A stretch of 64,000 bases of DNA, from NCBI GenBank assembly GCA_000004985.1, contig GG738856.1; one strand, 5' to 3'. Positions 5,459-63,876 of this stretch are shown here, one piece after another. The notes under the pieces are model-generated. The model was not told where the DNA came from. It was given only the letters and a program-made list of their open reading frames with translations, and searched no databases. This DNA comes from Naegleria gruberi (lineage: Eukaryota). Each line of letters opens with the position of its first letter. Positions within the stretch are counted from its first letter, which is position 1. A program made the position numbers and the translations under genes.

Positions 5459-7851
5459 TTATTCTTTCAATAACTTTTTAATCTTTTTGTAAAGATATTT
5501 AGCAGGTAAATCATTTGGATTATGTTCCATAAAATCTTTCATAATATTCTTGGCAACTTCTAATTGAGTTTCTTGTAAATAATATGAAAATGCCTTATTG
5601 TAATCAACCCATCGATTCTTTCTTTCCTTATCTTTCAATTCATACATCCATTCATCTGTTAAAGTATCTTGTAATTCACCAATTTCGAATAGATTAATTT
5701 TCTGACCTTTTTGCTTTGAAATGAGTGAACAACTAGTTTCTAATAAAAATTGTTTTCTTCCAACAAATCGAGAGGAGAATTGTTCAGATTGTGAATGAAT
5801 AATTTCTGAAATTATGAATGAAATGTTAAATTTCATTGCATGTTTCATCATTCGTTGTAAATTTTGTGATAAACTTGACATGATTGTGAAAACTTTTGAT
5901 TCTCTAGTTCCGTAATTACCACATTTGGAAGTTTGGCTATGAACTGCAATTCTAAATGAGAAATTTTGAATTAAATCTGAATTTTGTTCAAATATTCTAT
6001 CATTCTTCCATTTCTTTGATAATTGTTGTAATCTATCATATAATTTAAAAGAGAATAATAATGATTTCTGACAATGTTGTTTGACTTCTGACACACTATT
6101 CAATGATATTACAATGGATTGATTTTCAAAACTACCCAAATATGCTCCAGACTTTGAACTTGTTTGTTGTAAAATTTCAAATAATTCACTCATCAATCTA
6201 ATAACTTCATTGTTATCTAAAATTGAAAACCAATCTTCAATTCCATCCAAATAAATTAAACAAGCACTAATATCCTTACTTTCCATTCCAATTTTAAACA
6301 TTGATGATTTGGAATCTGAGACTGATTTTCTTAATGAGTTTTTCAAATCAACACTTGAAAACATTCCATATTTGGATTTGGCTGCAGAATTTGTTGATTT
6401 TCTATAAGTGGATTCTGAAACAGCTTCTTGTTCTACTGCTGTATTATCACCTGTGTGTTCTAGTTGACTCAATAAATGGGATGGAATAAAAGCTCTATAT
6501 TGTCTAATTTTGGTAACCATTTGTGAAAAACCTTGTTGTAATTGAGAAATTTCTGTAAATCTACTTGGAACAATTACCAAATCCAATTCCATTCTTGAAA
6601 GACTATCAAATAATTCAATTAAATTCCAAAATGGTTTTGAAATTCTATAAGAGGAATAAATTCCCAAAAATGTTCCACCCAAAATTATCATTATACCACA
6701 AACAATGCCAACAATGATGGCAATGACCATATTTCCTATAAATGTCCATCTTGGAATGGTTACTGCAAATATCCAATCCAGCCCTGTTTGTGTGCAATAT
6801 CTGTAAACACTAATTTTGTAGAACGTATTCGAAACATCACCGAATGAATTGCAAGGTAACTGAAAATTTGGATAACTTTGATTAACCCAATGATATAAAT
6901 TTCTACTGTTATCATCCATTTGATCAACTGTAGTACTAATATTGAATGAATCAGGATAGCTCGCTAAATTATTGTAAAAACTTTACAAAAACAAATTACA
7001 ATCAACTTACTTGCAACTACAATTTGTGAACTAGTTTCAATAATCAATCCAAATGAACCACTATTCTCTCCCTGAGTAACATTCTTCAAGAAGAAAGTCA
7101 AATCAGAAACTGAAATTGCCATTTTCAAATACCAATCATAACCTTTAGCTCTTTGTGAATTTTCCTTCGAGTTGACTAAACCAACAAATCTCATTGGTAA
7201 ACCATTTAATTCATATAAATGAGTAAAGAATGGTTGACCAGGTTTCTTATAAATCATATTAGCAATAGCTGAATCAGAAGTTGGTGGTAAAGTTGCTAAA
7301 TAAATTGGACATGCTGGGAATATGACACATAATTTAACTGTAATTCCACTAATTGGTGAGATGAAAACTTTGATGAGTGGTTCATTAATGACATATCCAA
7401 TGGCATTGCTTTCATAATTGTAAACTGTCAATTCTTTCATTATGGATTTGTGAAAAGTAGTTTCGGATAAAGTAAACGAAGCTATTGAGGAATCTGCAGT
7501 GTTGATATCTGAAACATTGGTGAATGAATTCATGATTTGATATTTGGCAGTTTGAGAGGCAATCACGAATTGATTAAAAGTTTGATCAACGTATGAAATT
7601 AATTTATCCTGTTTTAAGGAAACTATTGAATCTGACATTTCTTGTAATGAAATACTAAACGAAAGTATCCAAATAATACTTTGAATAAATACACTGCATG
7701 TTACTGCTATTATAATAATGGAGAGAATGCAAAATTTAATGGACACTAATTTTCTATTCGAATCTAATTCATTCATTGAACTTTCAGACGAATCTTCATC
7801 TATTGTTTTATCTCCTTTTGATAGAGTGGTAATGGGTTGAATTCTTGCCAT
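5459..7851 (-). CDS. Membrane protein with an N-terminal extracellular/TM region and a degenerate class III nucleotidyl-cyclase homology domain (pseudo-cyclase). Two exons, modelled as join(7851..7011,6963..5459) on the minus strand.
   Basis: Track ORFs 6964..7851 and 5459..6919 are joined by a 47-nt intron with a GTAAGT donor (minus strand, plus positions 7010..7005) and a TTTAG acceptor. The phase-1 junction reads ..QIVVA|T|SYPDSFNISTTVDQMDDN.. in frame. There are TM helices at the N-terminus and around residues 330 to 360 of the joined protein. The C-terminal region aligns to the cyclase domain (ACLIYLDGIEDWFS; FRIAVHSQTSKCGNYGTRESKVF..NLQRM), but the GDAY metal-binding Asp and the NTxSRMES Asn are missing. 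Confidence 0.55.
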
Positions 7852-8011: not shown

Positions 8012-8915
8012 AGGGTTGAGAATATAATTTACGTTTTGGATGTTCCTGAAACATCAATAGACATCATCAACATTAATATTTTTGTCAATAGAATTAAAAA
8101 GCACTGTACTGAGTAGTAAACACGAATGAGGCACATAAAATTGAATATAAAACTTGAAGCCCCACAAGTGTGTTAACCTCTGATGAACTTGCATGGTTGG
8201 GTATATTTTATTTTCCGATCAAAACTGTTTGCAAACAATGAAAAACAATAAATTTTGTCGTCATGCACTAAATTAAAAAAATATTTATTTTCCAACCTAA
8301 TGATGAATTGATTCTTCATCTTGATAGAGAGAAGATTGTGTCAACCTCTCACAATGATCCTTAATTTATATTTGTATTCTTTAATTTCAAATTACTTGAT
8401 CAAATTTGACTTGGCCGATATTAAACTCACCCCGAATGTGCAACTTCATTTCTCAACTTCATTCTACAAGAGATTGTTTTGATTCAAAATTTGTGCATTT
8501 TCAAAGATTTAGACTTCTTAATCAATTATTTAATTTTGGAACGATTCAAAGTTGTATGAATCGAATAGTATCTTCTCAAATTATCCATCAATTTTCAAAG
8601 ATAGTGTTCATGGCTCAGAATATATTGGAGGTCTGAATCTCTATGAACCCATCAGTGTTTGTAGATAAATCACTACCTATCAAAACTTTCCAATTGAGGT
8701 ATAAATAATCACAATAGGACAACTCTATAGATTGCAAAATTTAATATTTGTGTTTTAAAAAGCTCGATTAGCACAGAATTAAACAATATCTCTTGAAATC
8801 AATCCAAAAATGTACAAAAAATTAGTTCACCGAATAATAAAAACACAAATTTTCATACACCTTTACCTTCTTTCGAATAATAATTTGTAGTTGAAAACTA
8901 GTTTCTTTCAAAAAA

Positions 8916-31694: not shown

Positions 31695-32780
31695 ATGCAA
31701 CAAGCTGTTCTTGGAGGCCAATTTCAAACACCTTCAAAGTTATTTCCCTTACTGATGAATTCGGGAGAGGAATTTTCAAATTATGATGATGAGGATTTCT
31801 ATCGGGATGATGCTAAGGAAACAACATCAAGCTCGCGACCGGATATGACTTTACTGAATTCTCTGAAGGAGTGGATTAATGTATTGGTAGGATTGGATTT
31901 GGTGGAAATTAAAACGCAAAATCCATTACAGAGTTTTTTGAATTGTTTTAAGGACGGAGTATTGCTGTGTAGAATTGTTGAAAAGATTAAATTAAAACAC
32001 ATAACTTTTAACAAACATCCTGGAGGAAAGGAAGTTGTTGAGAGGGAAAATTTTCAAACATTCTTAAAGGTAAGTCACAATCAGGCCTAAATCGATTAAG
32101 AGAATACCACAGGAATTGGTAGGTTGGGTATAATTCCTAATTATATTGAATATTTCATATAGAACATATTATTCGGATCAACTAAAATTGAGTCTGTTAT
32201 CAAATATGAACCCAGTGATTGGGCTAAATATTTCAATTCAAAAACAGAGCACTCACAACTATTGCTGGAAACTTTAATTAGAATATCCAGATGTGCTTCG
32301 AGAAGAACCAATTTCAATGGTCCATTATTGGATTTGGATCTTAATTCCTCGACAAGCTCTCAAATAATTGAAAGCACCCCTAAAAATCAGATGGAAAATT
32401 TGAATGAAGAAAACACAAAACAAATAGAACCTACTTCTGAGTCTAGGAACAATCGTATCGACGATTATCATAATACCTCAACCATAAGAAACTTTCAAAC
32501 AAAATTAAAACCAAACTCTAGAACTTTCAAGGAAACAGCACTATTCAGTTTAAGACAGTTATTGGATGATCTGGAACTTGAAGACGACGACTTTGAAGGA
32601 ACTGATATGATACCAAAGCAGAAATTTGATACCATGTGCAGTGACTACGAATTACAATTGGAAAATCTGAGATTTATCATTCAAAAAAAGAATTTGCAAA
32701 TTGAAAAGCTTCAACTGGAAAAGAAACAACTAATGAAAACATTAAGCATTACCCAAGTTGAAGTAAAATTCAATGATTAA
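31695..32780 (+). CDS. Calponin-homology (CH) domain protein with a C-terminal coiled coil. Two exons, modelled as join(31695..32069,32163..32780).
   Basis: The CH-like segment is KEWINVLVGLDLVEIKTQNPLQSFLNCFKDGVLLCRIVEKIK. A 93-nt intron runs 32070..32162 (GTAAGT donor, TTCATATAG acceptor, phase 0) and the reading frame continues as NILFGSTKIE.. The coiled coil is near the end (LQLENLRFIIQKKNLQIEKLQLEKKQLMKTL). Confidence 0.55.
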
Positions 32781-48994: not shown

Positions 48995-49695
48995 ATGATC
49001 AGCAATGAAGTGGAAATGCTATTGAATGATCCTGATTTTAAAATCAAAATAGTAATGGTTGGATCTCCTAATAGTGGAAAAACATCATTAGCTACTCGAT
49101 TTGCTAAATGTGAATTTGATATGAATAAATCGTATGAACATTCTACAGATACGAGTATTCAGTTGGCTAAAATTGATGTCAATGATAAACAAGTTACAAC
49201 TGAAATTTGGGATTGTATCAGTGAATTGGGAGTTGCCCATGAGGAAAAGAGAAGATTACAATATTTGAATACTATGGCTTTTATAATTTGTGTGTCACTG
49301 ACTGATGAGTCAACTTTGGAGGATGCTCTTCATTATGTAAGTTTTTTTATTGGAAACCCAAGTTTCAAAACATGAATGGAAATTGGATTATCTCAATTTT
49401 AATTATATAGTGGATTCCTGAAATTAAGAAATATTCACCTGATACACCAATTGTCTTATGTGGATCTAAACTTGATCTTGTTAAGAATGATTCTTCAATT
49501 GGAACACAAAATCAAAATAGGTATACTACTTATGAACACATGGTTCATCAAGCTAAAAGAAGTAAATGTAAAACCTATGTGGAAACAACGTGCATATCAG
49601 ATGTGACAGTTGTTCAATTATTTGCAACAGCAATCCAATGTGCCTTAGGTCTTTACAAGGACGATGACTCTTCCAAAAAATGCTCTCTCATGTAA
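48995..49695 (+). CDS. Ras-superfamily small GTPase, Rho-like, with an atypical G3 region and a C-terminal CaaX box. Two exons, modelled as join(48995..49336,49411..49695).
   Basis: Exon 1 encodes the P-loop GSPNSGKTS and ends ..DALHY. A 74-nt intron follows (GTAAGT at 49337, TTATATAG| ending at 49410, phase 0). Exon 2 encodes WIPEIKKYSPDTPIVLCGSKLDL (a Rho-family W.PEI motif; the G4-like motif is CGSKLD) and ends KKCSLM, which is a CaaX box. The canonical DTAGQE (G3) is replaced by IWDCISELG. Confidence 0.7.
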
Positions 49696-49849: not shown

Positions 49850-52393
49850 ATGCTTGGACAACAACAATCGGATTCGGAACGTAAATTTCTCTCTCGTTTG
49901 ATCAGCTCGCAAAAACAATCACAACAATATGTTGATGAGGGATTGAAAGCTAAAGCAAGAGCCTTGATTCCTGTGGATCAAATTCATGAACGAGCACAAG
50001 AAAAATACAAGATGAAAAAGGAGAATGATCCAAACTCTAATCCATTGTTGGAACGTTTCATCATTCAAGAGTTATTAAATTGGTTTAAGAGTGATTTTTT
50101 CAAGTGGGTTAATAATCCTCCTTGTGATCATTGTCAAGCAACAAATACAAACGGAATGGGAGGAGTTGCTCCTAATGCTTCGGAACAACAAAATTTAGCT
50201 GGTATTGTTGAATTGTATTCATGTCCAAATTGTAGACAAACTACCAGATTTCCTCGATATAATTATGTTGGAAAATTATTGGAAACTAGAAGAGGAAGAT
50301 GTGGTGAGTGGGCTCAATGTTTCACTTTAATGGCCTCAGCTATGGGATATGAAGCAAGATATGTTCTTGATTGGACTGATCACGTTTGGACTGAGGTTTA
50401 TTTGGATGGATGGTGTCATGCTGATTCATGTGAAGGAACACTGGATTCACCAATGATGTATGAAGCTGGATGGCAAAAGAAACTCTCTTATATTATTGCT
50501 TTCTCTGCAGAGGAAGTAATTGATGTCACAAAAAGATATACTCAAAATTTCTATTCTGACGACTTCCAACAAAGAAGAAGAGCTCAAGGCATTAGTGAAC
50601 CTTGGTTAGAAAGCACATTGAAAAACATTAATGAGCAATTGCATGTATTTATGCCACCTTACAGATCTACCTTCCTTAAAAATAGACAAACAAAGGAAAA
50701 AGATCAAATTGAACAAAAGCAAAAATCCTCGTCTGACCTCACATTGGAAGAACAAAGAGGAAGAATATCCGGCTCTGAAGAGTGGAAGAAGTCTCGAGGA
50801 GAAACAGGCAAAACATCTTGTGATGACGATAGCTGTCCTGTTCCTCAATATAAGTTAGAGCAATCTGTTGTGGATAGCCTTAAGCTCTATACCAACAAGA
50901 TTGAAGTGAATAAGAAAACAAATTCTCTATCTTGTCTAGGAAATTGTAGAGTTTTGAATGATAATTCAATCATAATTACAGAAAACAAGACTTCTCAATG
51001 CGGTTCAATAGTGTTTAATGATCAGTTGGATGTGCGTGATATGGTTATTGAATTCTCGTTCCAACTTACAAAGAATGGAACTGGAGCCGATGGGTTTGCC
51101 CTGATTATGCACTCCAATGATAATGCTGCACAAATGGGAGCTCCTGGTAGTGGAATGGGATATGAAGGAATACCAAACTCTATTGCAATCGAATTTGATA
51201 CTTACCAAACCTTCGATAGAACAAGAGATCCAGATTCAAACCATATCTCTATCCAAACAAGATATGACAAACCAAACTCTGCACATCACGACTATTCTCT
51301 CAAATGTACAACAAGTCTTCCTATTACTCTTTCAGATGGAAAAATTCACAACTGTCAACTTCTTATCCAAGGAGGGAAATTATCTATTATTTTAGAGAAG
51401 GAATATTTGATACTGAAGGATGTATCTGTTGATTTTGAGAGAGTATTTGGAAAGGGAAAGAAATTTAGAATTGGCTTAACTGCTTCAACAGGTGGTTTAT
51501 CAGAAGAACACAAAATTGTAAATTGGTCCATCCTCACAAAAACAACTAGTACTTCATATGTTCTCTTTGACCAAGTGAACATTGCAGGTGTTGAGAAAAA
51601 ACTCAAGGAATTGATTTCTCGTGAACCTAGTCCTACAATTACAGATATACAAGTTCAATCGCTTTTGAATGTGAGTGGTTGGAAAATTACAGAAATTTCC
51701 TTAGTGAATTCTATCCTCAGACAATGGAAATTCGAAAACCTCTTCCCAATTATTGACTTGTTGCGTATTGCCATTGTAAACAACAAGACTGTCTCAGATA
51801 CATTCTCCAAGCTTTTCATACAGAATCAAAAGGACCATTTATTATTGAATATCTTTAACAAGACTAGTGAGGCAACAGTTGAAAATTCGTACGCCTACTG
51901 CCTTGTATCTCTTAGACTTATTAACAATCTCTTTAAGGAAAGGTTAGGTAGAGTCTATGTTAACAAGTTCACAGACAAAATCTTGGAACAGTTGACAGAA
52001 AGCAAAATTTTCACCTTACAACCAACCTCAAAACCTGCATATAGACAAACGTACGGTGCTCTCCTTCACAATCTCTCACTATTATTTGTAAATGAGCTTC
52101 CAGATGAAGAAATGATGGTTAGGTTATTCTCCACCTCCTTTGAAATGTTGGAAAAAGAGATTTCAAGAGAAGACTTTGATGAAAGTGCTTGTCAATATGC
52201 TATCAAATCGTTAACAATACTTCTCAAGGTTGATTCAAAGGAACAACCAACCGATGAAGAGGACAGTATCATGCATGGTCTTGCCTTAAGTATGGACATT
52301 CATAGTTTAGTGTTGAAATTGAAGACAAGAAACCTTGCCAATGTGGATTTGTGTTCTCTTCTCAACTCATTAGAAAAACAGTTTGGAAATTAA
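49850..52393 (+). CDS. PNG1: Peptide:N-glycanase (PNGase) with a transglutaminase-like core, fused to an L-type-lectin-like beta-sandwich domain and a C-terminal helical region.
   Basis: An 847 aa ORF. The PNGase core has the zinc-binding CDHC..CPNC and the catalytic Cys motif RRGRCGEWAQCFTLMASAMGYEARYVLDWTDHVWTEVY. The middle region is ADGFALIMHSNDNAAQMGAPGSGMGYEGIPNSIAIEFDTYQTF..DPDSNHISIQT, which matches the legume/L-type lectin pattern (ADG[LF]AF..GG.LG...N..VAVEFDT..N..DP..NHIGI). The C-terminal roughly 250 aa are helical. Confidence 0.8.
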   Translation: MLGQQQSDSERKFLSRLISSQKQSQQYVDEGLKAKARALIPVDQIHERAQEKYKMKKENDPNSNPLLERFIIQELLNWFKSDFFKWVNNPPCDHCQATNTNGMGGVAPNASEQQNLAGIVELYSCPNCRQTTRFPRYNYVGKLLETRRGRCGEWAQCFTLMASAMGYEARYVLDWTDHVWTEVYLDGWCHADSCEGTLDSPMMYEAGWQKKLSYIIAFSAEEVIDVTKRYTQNFYSDDFQQRRRAQGISEPWLESTLKNINEQLHVFMPPYRSTFLKNRQTKEKDQIEQKQKSSSDLTLEEQRGRISGSEEWKKSRGETGKTSCDDDSCPVPQYKLEQSVVDSLKLYTNKIEVNKKTNSLSCLGNCRVLNDNSIIITENKTSQCGSIVFNDQLDVRDMVIEFSFQLTKNGTGADGFALIMHSNDNAAQMGAPGSGMGYEGIPNSIAIEFDTYQTFDRTRDPDSNHISIQTRYDKPNSAHHDYSLKCTTSLPITLSDGKIHNCQLLIQGGKLSIILEKEYLILKDVSVDFERVFGKGKKFRIGLTASTGGLSEEHKIVNWSILTKTTSTSYVLFDQVNIAGVEKKLKELISREPSPTITDIQVQSLLNVSGWKITEISLVNSILRQWKFENLFPIIDLLRIAIVNNKTVSDTFSKLFIQNQKDHLLLNIFNKTSEATVENSYAYCLVSLRLINNLFKERLGRVYVNKFTDKILEQLTESKIFTLQPTSKPAYRQTYGALLHNLSLLFVNELPDEEMMVRLFSTSFEMLEKEISREDFDESACQYAIKSLTILLKVDSKEQPTDEEDSIMHGLALSMDIHSLVLKLKTRNLANVDLCSLLNSLEKQFGN

Positions 52394-52399
52394 AGTGGT

Positions 52400-54600
52400 T
52401 TAAAGTTTACTTGGGGTGTGAGTTCTATTATTGTTATTATTGTTGGTGTTCTGAATATTTCTTTGAGGTAAGGAAGGCAGAGGTGAGATTGGTTTAAAGG
52501 AGTATACCTCTTTAAGGGTCTGGTTTGGAGTATTGTAAATATTATTCAACTCCCTCTTAATGTCACATTTTACATTCAATATACATCTCAATAAAGGCTC
52601 CAATTGATCGATTGGGATTGAGAAATTAATGCTCGGAATTAAAAGTGGTTGCACATGACCTGATGTTCTGTCAGTAAGCTTGTACTTGACATTGCTTGTC
52701 ACTAGACCTACTAATTGTCCTTTAGCATTGAAGATTCCTCCTCCGCTATTTCCATCATGAACGTGGGCTGTTGTACAGACCATAGCTCTCTTATTTCCTA
52801 TATAAACAACCTTGGATACAATACCCTTAGTAATTGTACATTGTTTTATAGATCTTGAGGTATTCAATGGTTGCATCAATGGAAATCCAACAACATAAAC
52901 GTCCTCTCCCTCTTGAACATCACTAGAACATGGCAAAATTCCACTCGTTTCGATTAAGTTTGATTGCACTAATTGGCAAACACTTGATTCATGAATTTTC
53001 AGCAAAGCAACATCAAGCTTGATTTGGATTAACATAAGAATAGTGAAAATCAACTTACTGGACCAGAGCTGCAATAAAGAATCAAATCTGCCTGATGGAA
53101 TTTATGACTCTTTTCGTTATCCCTCAAATCATAATCCAATTGAACAACGATTGAAAGGTGATCAGGTAAGAAAAAGGTGCCATCCTCCTTCTGTTGCATG
53201 AAAGGTGCCATCACATGTGAATTAGTCATTATATCTACAAGACTATTGTTAAAATAAATGCATTAATCATACTTACAACCAGTATGGGTCAATAAGATTC
53301 CAGTTGCCCAAGTATTATTAATTATTATGAGTGCAATCTTATTTCTGGTAATATTGTAAATATCATTTGATTTATCCATAACTGGAAGAATAATATTAGG
53401 TGATGTTCCAATAAATTTTTCTCTCAATAGTTTTACAAAAGGATCAATGGAAATTACAATATTCAATCCATTACTCGAGGATATAGAACGAACAGGTAAG
53501 GTACAAAACTAGAATCATTTCCATCAAATGTAAATATTATATAATAAACTTACTCCTACACACTTGGTTTGTGTAATTACTCTCGCAAAGACTGGAGCTC
53601 CTTCACTTCCTGGATGTATCTGACAATCTGTAATGATGGCCAAATTTTGAGAATTATTATTGTTATTAATCTTGTTACAAATAATTCCTTTTGTTAAATG
53701 ATTGGAAAGGGAATGAGGTGAAAGTAATCCGAAAGGAGATGAAACAATGAATAAATCATCTCCCTGTGAAAGAAAATCTCCATTATATTCCACATCTGGT
53801 ATGGAAACTGCATAGTTTTTCAAACTTTCACAGTTTTTAATCTTGAAAACAGCCATAGTTGATGGTGTAATCAGTGAAGAAGGTATTTCCACAGAATTAT
53901 TTGGCATTTGTTGGTCATCAAATTTAGAATGAGGTTCCTTGAATGAGGATTTAAGAGTATGTCCAACATTCTGATTTCCCTTCCTCACCAATGGATGGCC
54001 CCAATACCAACCTTGTAATTGATTAGTCATTTGATGAATATATTTATCAGTAGTAGTATGTGAAAATAATCCCATTAATTGAATATCCGACTTGACAAAT
54101 GAGCTCACTGAATTATGAGACAGTTTAAGATTAGGCACTTTTCCAAATCGTTTCACTTGTGAAGGAAGAATTTCATTAAATAACATATCTCCATTTGGTA
54201 GAGTAATAGTCACTTTACAATTTAATTTTGGTATAATTTCCACAATACTTCCTTCTTCACTCTGTTTTGAAATATTAGAAATAAACGGAGACAATAATGT
54301 TCCACTCGTAATGACAAAATATGTATTTTCCTCCTTATTAGATTTAATTACAAATCCACTGGATGAATAACTCAAACTCTCTCCGCCAGCATCAGTCATA
54401 TCAGCAAGAAAGAAGGGAATTTGAAGATGTGATTTAGTAGAATTCGGAGCACATTGTCCAGTCATACAAATCATCACTGAATCTCCAAAGGATTTTTCTC
54501 TAATTAATTGTGAAGATCCTTCTTCTCCTCCCGATCCGAAATTATTGTGATGAATAAATAAATCCATGTTAGTACTATCACCCGAAGATCCATTAATCAT
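52400..54600 (-). CDS. Trypsin-like serine protease with two protease-like domains and a C-terminal -SKL (PTS1). A peroxisomal processing protease of the Tysnd1/Deg15 type. Four exons, modelled as join(54600..53554,53508..53277,53234..53059,53017..52400).
   Basis: Three track ORFs, two of them TTG-started, are connected by short introns. The first is 45 nt with a GTAAGT donor at 53553 and a CTAG acceptor. The second is 42 nt with a GTAAGT donor at 53276 and a TTGTAG acceptor. The third is 41 nt with a GTAAGT donor at 53058 and an AATCAAG acceptor. The joined protein has the catalytic His motif ..LLTHTG|YIMTNSHV.., the Asp motif ..SSGP|LDVALLKI.., and the Ser motif GNSGGGIF. It ends ..THTPSKL*, where -SKL is a canonical peroxisomal targeting signal 1. 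Confidence 0.6.
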
Positions 54601-54706
54601 TTTTTTTTAATTTTATTTTTAAATAATAAGAATAGTGTAATGTTTATTGTGTTAACAATGACCAATGACCTCATCAAAAGTGATGTGACCTATCATTAGG
54701 TATAGT

Positions 54707-56170
54707 TTAATTATTTTTGTTATCTTTTTGTACTTCAGAAATGTGTTTCATTAATTTTTTGTTGTTTTCAGCCATTGCTTCAATAATATATTTGTTATTT
54801 TCAGTTATTGCCTCAATAAGTACTTCTGTAATTTTGTCAATAATGTATTTGTTATTTTCAGCCAGCAAATTTCTGTGTTCCAAATTTTGATCCTCATCTC
54901 TTTCGACTGCCTTACTTGAAAATAAAACGCTTGAACTAGAAATAGATGTTGTATCATCTTCATGAGCGGTCTCTGTTGCTAGAAGAACATCTTGAATTTG
55001 ATTGGTGTTTGGATTTACAATTTTCAAACCTGTGAGAGCTACTTGAATTGAATGGATAACATCTGTATCTTGTCCTTGAGTTGGGTTAGTGTTTGGATTT
55101 GCAACTTGTTGACAAGGCAAGCATTCGGTATCTTCAAGGTTAGCACCTGGAATCTTTTGTTTAACAGGTGGTTGCTTCTTGATTTCCTTCTTGCTCTTCT
55201 TTGGTTCTGTTTTAAGAGGTGTGCTTTGTTCTTGAATTGGGTTGTTTGCAATAGAAACTTGAACAGTTGAAAGAGCCTTACATTGCTTAATGGTAGGTTG
55301 TTTCTTGCTCTTCTTTGGCCCATACAAGACCTTTGCGGCATCTTGAAATTCCTTTCTTTTTGCTTTCTTGGTGTCGACAACAATTCTCTTTACCTTTTCA
55401 AAATCATCTTCTCTCATGTTCAAAATATCTGACACTGTTTCAACACCCTTACATAAATCCTGTTGAATCTCTTGATGCAATTCAAAAGAGTAAAAATCAA
55501 GTTCTCTCCTAATCTTGTTAAATAATGTAATGGAAATATGAGCCTTATTGTTGCTCTCTAGGAAGCACTTGGTGATCTGTTCTTGCAATGAAGAATTAAT
55601 ATTCCAATTGAAGTACAATAGGGCTCTAACAAGACAATATCTGGAAGACTTTGAGTAGCCTAACTTTCTAAATATTTCGTCTAATTCATCATTCTTTAAA
55701 TCAACAGAAGGTTCTTCCTTTACTCTATCAGCCTTCATTGTTTCTCTAATGCAATCCATAATCACTTGTTGTTCAACACGATCAGAGCCTAATTTAATAT
55801 AATCAAGATAGTTTCCGTTATAATTGGTGATGACCTTTGTTACTACATGGTTAACCTTAGGGATGTTTGAAACCTTCTTTGGGATTATGTTAATAAGAAG
55901 ATCCTTGAGTGCTGTGCTATCAGAAAGATAATCCATTAAAATCATAACCAGTTGAGAATTACTTTTAAGCAATTCTTTCATGGTAGAAGGTTTCTTCTCC
56001 AAATTCAAATAACGTTTCCAATCTGATTGTATTTGTTGAACAGAAAGCAATATCAATACAAGTTCCTTTGGAGGAGCATAAACATTGGAGGTGGTAGTGA
56101 GGTGGTTTATAACAATTTGAAGAAGATTATTCATCTCCTCAACTCTTGAAGTGTCTTTTTGTGCTAACAT
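54707..56170 (-). CDS. Hypothetical protein with a Lys-rich central region and short C-terminal tandem peptide repeats.
   Basis: A 487 aa ORF. The C-terminus has repeats ENNKYIIDKITEVLIEAITENNKYIIEAMAENNKKLMK, encoded by a roughly 45-bp imperfect tandem repeat near 54745..54870. Confidence 0.4.
   Translation of the reverse strand: MLAQKDTSRVEEMNNLLQIVINHLTTTSNVYAPPKELVLILLSVQQIQSDWKRYLNLEKKPSTMKELLKSNSQLVMILMDYLSDSTALKDLLINIIPKKVSNIPKVNHVVTKVITNYNGNYLDYIKLGSDRVEQQVIMDCIRETMKADRVKEEPSVDLKNDELDEIFRKLGYSKSSRYCLVRALLYFNWNINSSLQEQITKCFLESNNKAHISITLFNKIRRELDFYSFELHQEIQQDLCKGVETVSDILNMREDDFEKVKRIVVDTKKAKRKEFQDAAKVLYGPKKSKKQPTIKQCKALSTVQVSIANNPIQEQSTPLKTEPKKSKKEIKKQPPVKQKIPGANLEDTECLPCQQVANPNTNPTQGQDTDVIHSIQVALTGLKIVNPNTNQIQDVLLATETAHEDDTTSISSSSVLFSSKAVERDEDQNLEHRNLLAENNKYIIDKITEVLIEAITENNKYIIEAMAENNKKLMKHISEVQKDNKNN
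54745..54870. repeat. Imperfect roughly 45-bp tandem repeat (about 3 copies) inside a coding region.
   Basis: The unit ttatttgttattttcag(c/t)(c/t)attgc(t/c)tcaata recurs three times. Confidence 0.5.
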
Positions 56171-56342: not shown

Positions 56343-58121
56343 TTATTGGGAAGCAGTTGCAGTAGGTGGGGGTGATGATTGGTTCTTTCTTTCCTCCATA
56401 AATTGAACAATCTTGGAATAAACTGCTTTGGAATAGATGGCGGCACGACGAACAATTTCAGATCTAATTCTTTGAGTTTCAACAGTAGATCCACTCAACA
56501 TATCTCCATTTTCAATGAGTCTTCTAGCCAAGTATGGCATAACATCAGTAACACTACCAAATGGAACATATTTTCCAACATTATATCCGTGATAAACCAA
56601 AGCATGAGATAAATTATCACCCATACCATAAAGTTGAGCAAACATAACACGTGGATCCTTCTTTTCAAATCCATACTTTTCAGTTAACAATCTACTACTC
56701 ATTCCCAAAGTGTCTTGGTTGTGTGAACAAATGAGGACACCAATATTTCCTTCACTATATAAATTATCGAGACAAAATTCAACTCCTCTAACATAGTTGA
56801 CGTGAGTTTCCAACAGTGTTTGTTGGAAAGGATATGGTATACCCATTTCGTTAGATCTAATTGTTTCAGATTTCATATAAGCACCTCTAACGAGCTTTGA
56901 ACCATGATGTAATCCGTTTTGAGTTAAAAAGTGATAATCGAATTGTAATCTATGGAGAGCATCCTTAAGATACATTTGATAGGTATTATAAACAACTGGT
57001 GTTTGTCTATTCTTCAAAATTTCCTTATTATTATACTTGATGCTCATCATCATGTACAATTGATCAATTGCAGCTTGATAATAAGTTTGTTCAGCATCAA
57101 CCAACAAACTCATTCCATTCTTGACGCAAGCATCACAGAGCATTGTGAGTCTTTGAATAACTCTACCCAATTTTGTTAATTCAACTTGAGAGAGAGGTTC
57201 CGGCGGTGTGTTTTCATTCAAGTTAAATGCAACAGTTCTAGGATATTGCTTGACAGTATATTCTTTCATTAAATCAAAAGTGCTGACATCAGAGGCAATA
57301 TCTCCAAAGAAATAAATATTAGTATTGAGCAATTTCTTGGCATGTTCAGATTCTGGGAATAATTGAACATAACATAAAATCTTACTCAATCTTTCCAAAA
57401 GGATACAACTAGAGATACCAGTAACTTTTACAACACCAAATGGACAAGGCAGTGGCTCATTAATACCATCTCTCTTCATGGCTCTATTTTGTTCTCCCAT
57501 AAATTCAATTGATTCAGCAATTACTTTGCAAATAGAATCTTCAACAACTTCTGAGCTATCTACATTAATAACAGAAGTTTCCAATGGTTGAACTGGACCT
57601 TCAACACTATAATCCAAGATACAATGCATTTTTTTGTTTTGAGTTACATCCACAATGGCCTTTTTGGTTTTTGGTAAAGTTTCACCTCCACAGAAATATT
57701 GGAAATAAGAATATTTAACAGCTTGAGAAACAACAGGTCCTCCTTTCTCAAGAATTTCAGCACCAATAGTTCTAACACCTGGCAATCTGCAACTTGTTAA
57801 AGCAGTATAGGTTTTCAATAATTGCCATGATGAAACTTGGTCATAATAAAGTTCAACTTTGGAAAAATCAATAGAAGTATTTCCACTAGTCCATTTCTTT
57901 TCTTGAGTAGCAATTCCTCCATCTTGTTGATTATTAACAATAGTACTTGTGGAAATATCCTCTGTTGTTGCTGATGATGAAGTTGCTTCTTGTTGTTGCA
58001 AATTTGTTCCTCTCATCATTGCCGAGCAACAGAAATTTCTACTTGTTTGAGTAGTAATAATAGAATTGGTTATCTTGTTGCTAACAGAGGCAACAACTCC
58101 TCTTGAACATTTAGTTAACAT
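56343..58121 (-). CDS. PUT1: Proline dehydrogenase (proline oxidase), mitochondrial.
   Basis: A 592 aa ORF. The C-terminus has the PRODH signature QLYGMGDNLSHALVYHGYNVGKYVPFGSVTDVMPYLARRLIENGDML. The N-terminus is presequence-like (MLTKCSRGVVASVSNKITNSIITTQTSRNF). Confidence 0.8.
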   Translation of the reverse strand: MLTKCSRGVVASVSNKITNSIITTQTSRNFCCSAMMRGTNLQQQEATSSSATTEDISTSTIVNNQQDGGIATQEKKWTSGNTSIDFSKVELYYDQVSSWQLLKTYTALTSCRLPGVRTIGAEILEKGGPVVSQAVKYSYFQYFCGGETLPKTKKAIVDVTQNKKMHCILDYSVEGPVQPLETSVINVDSSEVVEDSICKVIAESIEFMGEQNRAMKRDGINEPLPCPFGVVKVTGISSCILLERLSKILCYVQLFPESEHAKKLLNTNIYFFGDIASDVSTFDLMKEYTVKQYPRTVAFNLNENTPPEPLSQVELTKLGRVIQRLTMLCDACVKNGMSLLVDAEQTYYQAAIDQLYMMMSIKYNNKEILKNRQTPVVYNTYQMYLKDALHRLQFDYHFLTQNGLHHGSKLVRGAYMKSETIRSNEMGIPYPFQQTLLETHVNYVRGVEFCLDNLYSEGNIGVLICSHNQDTLGMSSRLLTEKYGFEKKDPRVMFAQLYGMGDNLSHALVYHGYNVGKYVPFGSVTDVMPYLARRLIENGDMLSGSTVETQRIRSEIVRRAAIYSKAVYSKIVQFMEERKNQSSPPPTATASQ

Positions 58122-62633: not shown

Positions 62634-63876
62634 ATGTCATCATTAGCAAGATTAATTTCAGACCATGTAAACTTGATAGAAAGTCTTTCATCATCGAATT
62701 TATCTTTATTGGATTTTGAGAATACTGATACGAATATCACCCTTGCAGAGTTGGACCCTCTTTATCAATCAATTGTTGGAATAGTACTTTCGTCCATTTT
62801 CTTTGTTTTTTTCAATATCTTGATAATAATTGTTTCGACCACGTTAATTAGACCAAAAGCAAGAAACGAAATGAAACGAAACCAATTCATTATGGTTGCA
62901 ATGGTCTCTGTCTTATCCCTAATTCAATGTTCAGGAATTATTTCAAGGATTTTTTGTGACCTCCTAAATATTATAATCGTTTCTCAATACCAGGACTTTG
63001 TGTCAGCAAATTATTTGCCAGAATCTCAAGAGTTTATTGACACTTTTCAAAACATTAATTGCTCACTGACAACAACACAGACTGGGATTAAATTCTCTTA
63101 CCTCATCTCAATGCATGTCTTTGATTCTTTCGAATGTTTCTTCATTGGAATGAATTTATTGATGATGGTTCTGATAATGAGCTTTGTTGGAAATGTTTTC
63201 CTTGAAACTGTAAAGCAAGCTGGGAGTAGGAAGGACTGGAATTTACGTTCCACAAGATGGTTGATGATAATTCTCAATTCCTTCACATGTTTGTTTTGTG
63301 GTTCGTTTGGGGCAATTATTATGGCAGTGTCTGTTATTTATTTCTTCATCAAGATGGGAATGTTGGAGAATTTTGAGTTTATTCTATTTCTAATAGGATA
63401 TATTATTTACTTTCTTCAAATTTTTATTCACACAATTATTTCAATTGTAAGTTTCTAATTCAGTTATTCTAATCCTTTGACATTTGCAATAGATTGTTGC
63501 ATTTAAGGTTTTACAAACAATCAAAACTCAAACATCTCAACAAAACAAGCAACAAACCCAACGACCAATCATTAAGATCATTTCTCTTCAAATTGCATTA
63601 ATAGCTGCAGCTTTATCTCAAATCATTGCCTTGGCATGTATAACGGTTGTGGATTATTGGAGTTACATGTCTATATTTTACAATTTCAGCAATTCTATTG
63701 GAATTTTCTTATTTGGAATTGTCACCATTCTACTCTATCATCCAATTTTCACAGATTCTGTAAAATTTGTGAATGATTTGCCCAATTCTATTCAACCAAT
63801 TGGTTCAAGAGTGAAAAGAAATAGTCTCTTTAAAAAACAACCACAAATTATTGACAATTCATCCATTGTTGTTTAA
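62634..63876 (+). CDS. Seven-transmembrane receptor-like protein, a putative GPCR. Two exons, modelled as join(62634..63446,63493..63876).
   Basis: A 46-nt intron runs 63447..63492 (GTAAGT donor, TTTGCAATAG| acceptor, phase 0). The downstream 81-aa track ORF is TTG-started, so it is a continuing exon. The joined protein of about 399 aa has 7 hydrophobic helices in a 3+2+2 layout. A Gln/Thr-rich loop (KTQTSQQNKQQTQRP) sits between helix 5 and helix 6. Confidence 0.5.

What the first reader, a model, noticed from the sequence alone, without database searches (positions are those of the whole stretch)
52400..54600. Four-exon reconstruction of a PTS1-tagged two-domain trypsin-like protease of the Tysnd1/Deg15 type
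Three separate track ORFs, two beginning at TTG, become one protein when three very short GTAAGT introns (45, 42 and 41 nt) are removed. The two splice junctions flanking exon 3 land on the catalytic His motif (TG|YIMTNSHV) and the Asp motif (GP|LDVALLKI) of a chymotrypsin-fold domain. The Ser motif GNSGGGIF lies downstream. The C-terminus is -SKL, a canonical PTS1. A second, more divergent protease-like half sits in the 358-aa first exon. This combination defines the peroxisomal matrix processing protease.
Basis: partly seen in the sequence, partly recalled or inferred. Interest (0 to 1): 0.5.

Follow-up and report, generated by a model that had tools for sequence, protein, structure and literature searches.

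The report
Naegleria peroxisomal processing protease gene

Summary
On the minus strand, four exons (54600-53554, 53508-53277, 53234-53059, 53017-52400) are separated by three GTAAGT...AG introns of 45, 42 and 41 nt. They join into one 690-aa reading frame ending in -SKL. The window is Naegleria gruberi NEG-M.

- **Gene model.** All three intron positions are conserved in N. lovaniensis. Orthologues from Naegleria, Willaertia and a more distant relative align without gaps across every junction.
- **Family.** The product has a C-terminal Trypsin_2 domain (Pfam 8e-27), no PDZ domain, and His433/Asp487/Ser576 at columns invariant in 111 relatives. Relatives that carry a source name are called "glyoxysomal processing protease" (plant DEG15) or "peroxisomal leader peptide-processing protease" (animal TYSND1). 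About 125 of 151 top relatives end in a PTS1-like tripeptide.

Peroxisomal import and removal of PTS2 presequences are inferred from the family, not shown here. No transcript evidence could be obtained. Verdict: correct interpretation, a routine member of a known family, low interest.

The parts
53554..54600 (-). Exon 1 (1047 nt, aa 1-349). ATG at 54600-54598. Encodes most of the N-terminal degenerate protease domain.
   Evidence: tblastn to N. lovaniensis covers aa 36-349 and ends exactly at this boundary.
53509..53553 (-). Intron 1, 45 nt, GTAAGT...TAG, phase 0, 20% GC. In-frame TGA if retained.
   Evidence: Same position in N. lovaniensis, where the intron is 82 nt.
53277..53508 (-). Exon 2 (232 nt, aa 350-426 plus the first base of codon 427). 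Encodes the last strands of the N-domain, the linker and the start of the catalytic domain (NNTWATGILL).
53235..53276 (-). Intron 2, 42 nt, GTAAGT...TAG, phase 1. In-frame TAA if retained.
   Evidence: The alternative 34-nt acceptor breaks the frame. Same position and phase in N. lovaniensis, where the intron is 55 nt.
53059..53234 (-). Exon 3 (176 nt, rest of codon 427 to aa 485). Carries catalytic His433 (CAT, 53217-53215) in YIMTNSHV.
53018..53058 (-). Intron 3, 41 nt, GTAAGT...AAG, phase 0.
   Evidence: Same position in N. lovaniensis, where the intron is 44 nt.
52400..53017 (-). Exon 4 (618 nt, aa 486-690 plus the TAA stop at 52402-52400). Carries Asp487 (GAT, 53014-53012) and Ser576 (AGC, 52747-52745) in GNSGGG.
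   Evidence: Pfam Trypsin_2 and Trypsin.
52403..52411 (-). C-terminal Ser-Lys-Leu, a canonical PTS1 tripeptide.
   Evidence: Conserved in Willaertia (-SKL), re-spliced N. lovaniensis (-SKL), P0004 (-AKL), Acrasis (-SRL) and about 125 of 151 family hits.
53413..54495 (-). N-terminal degenerate (pseudo)protease domain, about aa 36-381, interrupted by intron 1. The triad equivalents are Thr101, Thr248 and Glu333 (GAA, 53604-53602).
52649..53355 (-). Catalytic trypsin-fold (Deg/HtrA-type) domain, about aa 401-608, interrupted by introns 2 and 3.
   Evidence: Pfam Trypsin_2 aa 417-590 and Trypsin aa 414-594. Solved-structure sequence hits to SplE, DegP and DegS.

Best explanation
The locus is the Naegleria gruberi orthologue of the peroxisomal processing protease TYSND1 (animals) / DEG15 (plants).

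Shown here: a four-exon gene encodes a 690-aa protein. It consists of an N-terminal degenerate trypsin-fold domain with all three triad residues replaced, a C-terminal Deg/HtrA-type serine protease domain with an intact His433-Asp487-Ser576 triad, no PDZ domain, and a C-terminal -SKL.

Inferred from the family: the folded protein is carried into the peroxisomal matrix by the PTS1 receptor PEX5. There it acts as an endopeptidase that removes the N-terminal PTS2 presequence from proteins imported by PEX7. It may also trim some PTS1 beta-oxidation enzymes, as TYSND1 does. The inactive N-domain is needed for activity or oligomerisation, as N-terminal deletions of AtDEG15 suggest.
For: - Gene model: searches give frame restoration, gap-free orthologue alignment over all junctions, and identical intron positions and phases in N. 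lovaniensis. In a 99.2%-identical environmental strain all splice sites are kept and the only coding indel is 3 nt. Short GTAAGT introns of 42-52 nt are the local norm in the window.
- Family: Pfam Trypsin_2 at 8e-27 with no PDZ. An exhaustive HMMER search found 179 proteins at E<=1e-30. The members that carry names are called glyoxysomal processing protease or peroxisomal leader peptide-processing protease (also N. lovaniensis).
- Direct comparison: BLASTP gives 3e-37 to Fraxinus DEG15 over aa 70-683 and 5e-23 to Owenia TYSND1.
- Conserved residues: all family-invariant residues are present, including H433, D487 and S576.
- Targeting signal: a PTS1-like C-terminus in about 125 of 151 relatives.
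- N-domain.
- Organism context from the literature: Naegleria has peroxisomes, PEX5 and PEX7 (PMC7549135). N. gruberi PTS1s are mostly -SKL (PMC7549135). Its acyl-CoA oxidase is predicted to carry a PTS2 (PMC3178647, table 3).
- Family function: PMC3830196, PMC3573110 and PMC3473262.
Against: - No transcript evidence. Junction-spanning 22-23-mers were absent from metagenome and metatranscriptome contigs.
- The exact 690-aa product is not on record in the protein collection.
- Localisation and substrate cleavage are untested.
- In N. gruberi the classical PTS2 substrate, 3-ketoacyl-CoA thiolase, is predicted to use PTS1 instead (PMC3178647). [quoted passage not shown] The substrate set may therefore differ from that of plants and animals.
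- Substitutions against the near-identical strain (6 synonymous, 8 non-synonymous, 1 codon indel) are too few to show purifying selection.
Confidence: 0.8

Rival explanations
1. It is a peroxisomal TYSND1/DEG15-type protease, but in Naegleria its main job is not PTS2 removal. Instead it carries out general processing or turnover of matrix proteins, for example internal cleavage of PTS1 beta-oxidation enzymes or quality control.
For: N. gruberi thiolase is predicted to be PTS1-targeted, and only acyl-CoA oxidase is listed with a PTS2 (PMC3178647, table 3). TYSND1 also cleaves the PTS1 enzymes Acox1, Hsd17b4 and ScpX (PMC3573110). The title of the Helm et al. 2007 paper, as cited in PMC3473262, speaks of dual specificities of Deg15.
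Against: PEX7 is retained in all three Naegleria species (PMC7549135). Published descriptions state that members of this clade all have the capacity to cleave PTS2 (PMC3830196). The catalytic domain is conserved at every family-invariant position.
Confidence: 0.15
2. It is an ordinary Deg/HtrA quality-control protease of another compartment, and the -SKL ending is coincidental.
For: The best solved-structure matches are DegS, DegP and DegQ.
Against: There is no PDZ domain. The protease domain is C-terminal, behind a family-specific N-domain that is colinear with DEG15. The nearest named relatives are all TYSND1 or DEG15. The PTS1 is conserved across heterolobosean orthologues and about 83% of family hits. 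No solved TYSND1 or DEG15 structure appeared in the matches, so Deg/HtrA hits are simply the nearest available fold.
Confidence: 0.03
3. The ORF pieces are not one expressed gene: either a decayed pseudogene, or a gene spliced differently from the model.
For: No transcript data were available. The exact product is absent from the protein collection. The annotated models in N. fowleri and N. lovaniensis differ from one another at junction 1 and at the 3' end.
Against: Frame, catalytic residues and PTS1 are intact. Intron positions are conserved between species. Exon 2 and exon 3 sequence is conserved as far as Willaertia and Acrasis. The only alternative acceptor breaks the frame. The differences in the sister-species models are explained by mis-annotation: read-through of the N. 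lovaniensis 3' end restores conserved strands and -SKL.
Confidence: 0.02

Closest known systems
Plant DEG15 / glyoxysomal processing protease (Arabidopsis At1g28320; Deg/HtrA clade IV)
   Same: Colinear over almost the full length (BLASTP 3e-37, aa 70-683, to the Fraxinus orthologue). Long N-terminal region followed by the protease domain. No PDZ. His-Asp-Ser triad. C-terminal SKL. Shared N-domain motif SPFG...TD...PGxEG.
   Different: Lacks the long plant loop between His and Asp: 54 residues here against 96-128 in the two plant sequences measured. The calmodulin-binding site and the GPDP-MRKHAF motif of higher plants (PMC3830196) are not evident; the window has ...TGQCAPNSTKSHLQIPFF at that place. 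About 24% identity.
Animal TYSND1 / peroxisomal leader peptide-processing protease
   Same: Same architecture, triad and PTS1. BLASTP 5e-23 to the Owenia orthologue over aa 277-643. The scallop and Nematostella orthologues are in the same HMMER hit list.
   Different: The animal proteins are shorter (about 560-570 aa) with a tighter His-Asp spacing of 36-38. The first ~270 residues align poorly. TYSND1 self-cleavage and PTS1-enzyme processing are not testable here.
Heterolobosean orthologues (N. fowleri, N. lovaniensis C9374_000523, Willaertia magna ABK040_015491, Acrasis kona 'glyoxysomal processing protease')
   Same: 57%, 57% and 41% identity over most of the length for the first three. Same intron positions in N. 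lovaniensis. Same His-Asp spacing of 53-54. -SKL or -SRL ends.
   Different: The published N. lovaniensis and N. fowleri models lose the true C-terminus, and with it the PTS1. The N. fowleri model also drops 13 aa at junction 1. N. lovaniensis has a 305-aa gene between the protease and the PNGase gene that has no match in this window.
Plant DEG7 (active plus degenerated protease domain in one chain)
   Same: One active and one inactive trypsin-fold domain in a single polypeptide. In DEG7 the inactive domain mediates oligomerisation (PMC3194040).
   Different: DEG7 is about 1000 aa with four PDZ domains, belongs to a different clade (III) and is chloroplastic (PMC3473262). This is an analogy of design, not membership.

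Membership tests
TYSND1/DEG15 peroxisomal processing proteases (Deg/HtrA clade IV) | Trypsin-fold (PA clan, Deg/HtrA-type) catalytic domain placed toward the C-terminus | tested here: met
   Pfam Trypsin_2 at 8e-27, aa 417-590 of 690. C-half alone gives 6.4e-20.
TYSND1/DEG15 peroxisomal processing proteases (Deg/HtrA clade IV) | Intact His-Asp-Ser catalytic triad | tested here: met
   H433, D487 and S576 fall in columns that are 100% conserved in 111 family sequences.
TYSND1/DEG15 peroxisomal processing proteases (Deg/HtrA clade IV) | No PDZ domain | tested here: met
   No PDZ family reported up to E=1 in Pfam.
TYSND1/DEG15 peroxisomal processing proteases (Deg/HtrA clade IV) | C-terminal non-cleaved PTS1 tripeptide | tested here: met
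   -SKL. Conserved in orthologues and in about 125 of 151 family hits. No dedicated PTS1 predictor was available, and actual import was not tested.
TYSND1/DEG15 peroxisomal processing proteases (Deg/HtrA clade IV) | Long N-terminal region homologous to that of DEG15 and TYSND1 | tested here: met
   Colinear BLASTP alignment from aa 70 to Fraxinus DEG15. Family-conserved G280, P289, G291, N300, G305, D325, G331, E333 and G334 are all present.
TYSND1/DEG15 peroxisomal processing proteases (Deg/HtrA clade IV) | Closest named relatives are TYSND1 or DEG15 rather than other Deg/HtrA proteins | tested here: met
   In the HMMER search of 1.84 billion representatives, six of the ten hits sampled for names carry one, and all six are called glyoxysomal processing protease or peroxisomal leader peptide-processing protease. 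The only other label was a generic 'S1-C subfamily serine protease'. Bacterial 'serine protease Do' hits come only at E about 1e-8. No formal phylogeny was made.
TYSND1/DEG15 peroxisomal processing proteases (Deg/HtrA clade IV) | Cleaves PTS2 presequences inside peroxisomes | not testable with these tools
   Needs biochemistry or genetics.
TYSND1/DEG15 peroxisomal processing proteases (Deg/HtrA clade IV) | Host organism has a PTS2 pathway (PEX7 and PTS2 cargo) | not tested
   From the literature only. PEX7 is present in N. gruberi, N. fowleri and N. lovaniensis (PMC7549135). N. gruberi acyl-CoA oxidase has a predicted PTS2, but its thiolase has a PTS1 (PMC3178647, table 3).
Higher-plant DEG15 subgroup | Long loop between catalytic His and Asp, and an N-terminal calmodulin-binding site | tested here: not met
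   The His-Asp spacing is 54 aa, against 96 and 128 in Fraxinus and Ceratopteris. The calmodulin site was not tested formally. These are subgroup features, not family features (PMC3830196).
Canonical Deg/HtrA (DegP/DegS/HtrA1-4 type) | N-terminal protease domain followed by one or more PDZ domains | tested here: not met
   No PDZ domain. The protease domain is C-terminal.

The most novel reading that the evidence does not exclude
The whole TYSND1/DEG15 family, not just this gene, may be an ancient fusion of a dead protease domain and a live one. In the dead domain an almost invariant Glu (95% of 111 sequences) sits where the nucleophilic Ser should be, within a conserved PG-x-EG motif. [quoted passage not shown] It also suggests that the 'elongated N-terminus' of the plant Deg literature (PMC3473262) is a substrate-binding or oligomerisation pseudoprotease. 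In N. gruberi thiolase is predicted to use PTS1 and PEX13/14 are undetected, so the enzyme could serve an unusual client set. The structural part is well supported here. What is uncertain is whether it is new, since structure databases probably already show it, and whether Naegleria's substrates really differ.
Probability: 0.3. Interest if true: 0.35.

Novelty: new member of a known kind. Interest (0 to 1): 0.15.

Why it matters
Mainly as annotation.

- It gives a clean, homology-supported gene model for the N. gruberi peroxisomal processing protease, with exact exon boundaries, catalytic residues and PTS1.
- It shows that the public models of the N. lovaniensis and N. fowleri orthologues lose the PTS1 through mis-splicing or truncation. 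That could make in-silico peroxisome inventories miss them.
- It adds one component to the evidence that Naegleria keeps a working PTS2 import and processing route, although PEX13 and PEX14 have not been found.
- It documents that the family's N-terminal region is a degenerate protease domain.

None of this changes current understanding of peroxisomes.

Tried and rejected
- I therefore used orthologue P0003 and the window's exon 1 as structure targets.
- **Transcript evidence.** Junction-spanning exact 23- and 22-mers for junctions 2 and 3 gave no hit in metagenome contigs.
- **Exact-sequence look-up.** The 690-aa product and two shorter-start variants are not in the collection. The neighbouring genes are there as N. 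gruberi NEG-M RefSeq proteins. I could not tell whether the reference annotation has a different model here. Three UniProt accession slots lie between the flanking D2V850 and D2V854, which suggests it does.
- **Word-indexed searches are lossy.** One search missed the 98%-identical P0005, and one search missed the Naegleria orthologues. Absence from these searches is not informative.
- **afdb50 Foldseek library.** It was unavailable, so there is no direct fold match to TYSND1 or DEG15 AlphaFold models. The PDB holds only Deg/HtrA relatives.
- **GTAAGT enrichment.** There is none in the window. The argument rests on position and conservation, not on motif counts.
- **Alternative 34-nt acceptor for intron 2.** Rejected because it shifts the frame.
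- **mafft --add --keeplength.** It mis-placed the query. The family was realigned from scratch.
- **Kurochkin et al. 2007 (PMC1794383).** Not held in the library.
- **dN/dS against the 99.2%-identical strain.** Too few changes to be useful.

Full report
**What is in the sequence.** The feature lies on the minus strand. An ATG at 54600 opens a 358-codon ORF. It is followed by ORFs of 67, 59 and 224 codons in other frames. Three segments separate these ORFs: 53553-53509, 53276-53235 and 53058-53018. Each begins GTAAGT and ends AG. They are 45, 42 and 41 nt long and 20-27% GC, against 29-38% in the flanking coding pieces.

Removing them gives one 2073-nt frame of 690 codons plus TAA (52402-52400). 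The junctions read ...KCVG|FCTLPV......THTG|YIMTNSHV... (phase 1) and ...SSGP|LDVALLKI.... GNSGGGIF follows downstream, and the product ends ...RTHTPSKL. Introns 1 and 2 are multiples of three but carry in-frame stops, so they must be removed for the catalytic domain to be made. The only other nearby acceptor for intron 2 (34 nt) breaks the frame.

Exon 1 encodes 349 aa rather than 358. The exon 3 piece is a fourth ORF of 59 aa.

**Is the gene model real?** GTAAGT as such is not over-represented in the window (22 found, 22.7 expected). The case rests on position and conservation.

- Proteins from N. fowleri (57% identity), N. lovaniensis (57%), Willaertia magna (41%) and a more distant relative (27%) align across all three junctions without gaps. 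The one exception is a 13-residue hole in the N. fowleri model at junction 1.
- In the N. lovaniensis genomic locus (L001) there are introns at exactly the same three codon positions and phases. They are 82, 55 and 44 nt long.
- A metagenome contig 99.2% identical to window 49895-54859 keeps every splice site. Its only coding indel is 3 nt, in the poly-Asn tract.
- Elsewhere in the window, ORF pairs are bridged by similar GTAAGT or GTATGT introns of 42-52 nt (24353-24394, 63447-63492, 7010-6964, 3989-3946, 60559-60508). The lengths seen here are therefore the local norm.

No transcript evidence could be found. Junction-spanning 22- and 23-mers are absent from the metagenome collection.

**Source organism.** Four neighbouring ORF products are exact matches to RefSeq proteins of Naegleria gruberi strain NEG-M, on a 602-kb scaffold. 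One is the convergent upstream neighbour, peptide N-glycanase XP_002679728.1 (49850-52393). The exact 690-aa product is not in the protein collection, and I could not establish whether the reference annotation holds a different model for this locus.

**What the protein is.** Pfam gives Trypsin_2 at 8e-27 (aa 417-590) and Trypsin at 5.7e-12, with no PDZ domain.

An exhaustive HMMER search with a profile of the heterolobosean orthologues found 179 proteins at E<=1e-30. Most are 500-800 aa long and align from the second half of the N-terminal region through the protease domain. Ten of these hits were sampled for names:

- Fraxinus and Ceratopteris: "Glyoxysomal processing protease, glyoxysomal", the plant DEG15.
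- Scallop, Nematostella and Owenia: "peroxisomal leader peptide-processing protease", the animal TYSND1.
- Acrasis kona: "glyoxysomal processing protease".
- The other four carried no specific name. Three had none, and one was labelled only "S1-C subfamily serine protease".

UniRef also gives the N. lovaniensis orthologue the TYSND1 name. Direct BLASTP of the window protein gives 3e-37 against Fraxinus DEG15, colinear over aa 70-683, and 5e-23 against Owenia TYSND1.

In a 112-sequence family alignment, the window protein carries every residue that is conserved in at least 85% of sequences, except four substitutions: Leu298 for Phe, Thr418 for Ser, Ile44 for Val and Tyr657 for Trp. His433, Asp487 and Ser576 fall in columns that are 100% conserved.

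Of the 151 top family sequences, 74 end in SKL, 15 in SRL, 10 in AKL and 8 in ARL. About 125 in all have a PTS1-like tripeptide. Willaertia ends -SKL, P0004 -AKL and Acrasis -SRL. N. lovaniensis ends -SKL once its 3' end is read through.

These are the published defining features of Deg/HtrA clade IV: a protease domain shifted toward the C-terminus, no PDZ, a His-Asp-Ser triad and a non-cleaved PTS1 (PMC3473262, PMC3830196). Membership is supported on every feature that can be tested by sequence.

- Profile-profile comparison of the family's N-half with its C-half gives 99.4% probability and E 2e-21 over 197 columns, spanning the whole fold.
- Pfam on the N-half alone gives Trypsin_2 at 26 bits, just under the 27.6-bit cut-off.
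- A full-length model of the Willaertia orthologue (pLDDT 78, pTM 0.83) matches DegS, DegQ and DegP by Foldseek.

In the alignment of the two halves, the catalytic positions in the N-domain are Thr101 (for His), Thr248 (for Asp) and Glu333 (for Ser). The Glu lies in a PG-x-EG motif that is conserved in 95-100% of family members. The N-domain is therefore a pseudoprotease, and this is a family-wide property rather than a peculiarity of this gene. It extends into exon 2. The plant Deg survey I could read lists this region only as an "elongated N-terminus" (PMC3473262). I could not check whether later work describes it as a dead protease domain.

**How it most likely works.** The sequence shows an intact serine-protease active site, a canonical PTS1, and orthology to TYSND1/DEG15. 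The rest is inferred from the family and from published Naegleria data.

- The protein is imported by PEX5 into the peroxisomal matrix. Naegleria has peroxisomes, PEX5 and PEX7, and its predicted PTS1s are mostly -SKL (PMC7549135).
- There it removes PTS2 presequences from PEX7 cargo, as DEG15 and TYSND1 do (PMC3830196, PMC3573110). It may also process some PTS1 enzymes.
- One nuance applies. N. gruberi thiolase, the classical PTS2 substrate, is predicted to carry a PTS1, whereas its acyl-CoA oxidase is predicted to carry a PTS2 (PMC3178647, table 3). The likely client set therefore differs from the textbook one.
- N-terminal deletions abolish AtDEG15 activity in planta (PMC3830196). This fits a required structural or substrate-binding role for the dead domain.

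**Differences from the known members.** The spacing between catalytic His and Asp is 54 residues. That equals the family median, is longer than in the animal sequences (36-38) and is much shorter than in the two plant sequences (96 and 128). The plant-specific loop is therefore absent. The plant calmodulin-binding region is not evident.

**Rivals.**

- A non-peroxisomal Deg/HtrA protease is contradicted by the architecture, the named relatives and the conserved PTS1.
- A pseudogene or a differently spliced gene is contradicted by the conservation of frame, catalytic residues and intron positions.
- A peroxisomal protease whose main role in Naegleria is not PTS2 removal cannot be excluded. It is the main residual uncertainty.

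**Verdict.** The observation and the interpretation are both right. This is a routine orthologue of a well-characterised eukaryote-wide enzyme, already named in sister species. Its value is as a corrected gene model, and interest is low.

Noticed in passing
window 52394-52399: The stop codons of the convergent PNGase gene (+, ends 52393) and the protease gene (-, ends 52400) are only 6 nt apart, so their 3' UTRs and poly(A) signals must overlap on opposite strands. The re-spliced N. lovaniensis protease likewise abuts an opposite-strand gene (L001 8272 against 8273-8275).
   Followed up: partly
L001 6001-8275 (N. lovaniensis PYSW02000010.1): The public N. lovaniensis model C9374_000523 (641 aa, ends ...CSA) appears mis-spliced at its 3' end. 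Reading straight through restores the conserved QPLLLPSINFSIP strands and gives a 697-aa protein ending -SKL. The N. fowleri model (689 aa) lacks 13 aa at junction 1 and ends ...LSNK without a PTS1. Such models could be missed by PTS1-based peroxisome inventories.
   Followed up: yes
window 49850-52393 (+): Peptide N-glycanase (XP_002679728.1, 847 aa, single exon). Its N. lovaniensis orthologue carries Pfam hits to an L-type (legume-like) lectin domain and a PUL domain in addition to Transglut_core and Rad4. This looked to me like an unusual domain combination for a PNGase.
   Followed up: no
L002 1-4958 = window 54859-49895: An environmental metagenome contig (ENA ERZ929261, run ERR1078381, project PRJEB11402) is 99.2% identical to this stretch of N. 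gruberi NEG-M. A very close strain was therefore present in that sample. Prokaryote-style gene calling on it produced the unspliced 358-, 59- and 210-aa fragments found in the protein databases (P0005, P0029).
   Followed up: partly
L001 8272-9234 (-): N. lovaniensis has an annotated 305-aa low-complexity gene between the protease and the PNGase. It has no tblastn match anywhere in the window, so this is a local synteny difference or an annotation artefact.
   Followed up: partly
window 24353-24394, 63447-63492, 7010-6964, 3989-3946, 60559-60508, 32070-32162, 49337-49410: Other candidate short introns (42-93 nt, GTAAGT or GTATGT donors) that join adjacent long ORFs in frame. Several neighbouring 'separate' ORFs in the window are probably exons of single genes, for example 23069-24385 with 24425-26095, and 6964-7851 with 5459-6919.
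   Followed up: partly
window 54707-56170 (-) and 56343-58121 (-): The two ORFs upstream of the protease (487 and 592 aa) are not on record as exact proteins, although their neighbours are. The reference models there presumably differ in start codon or introns. The 487-aa product is low-complexity and Lys/Asn-rich, and no function was looked for.
   Followed up: no
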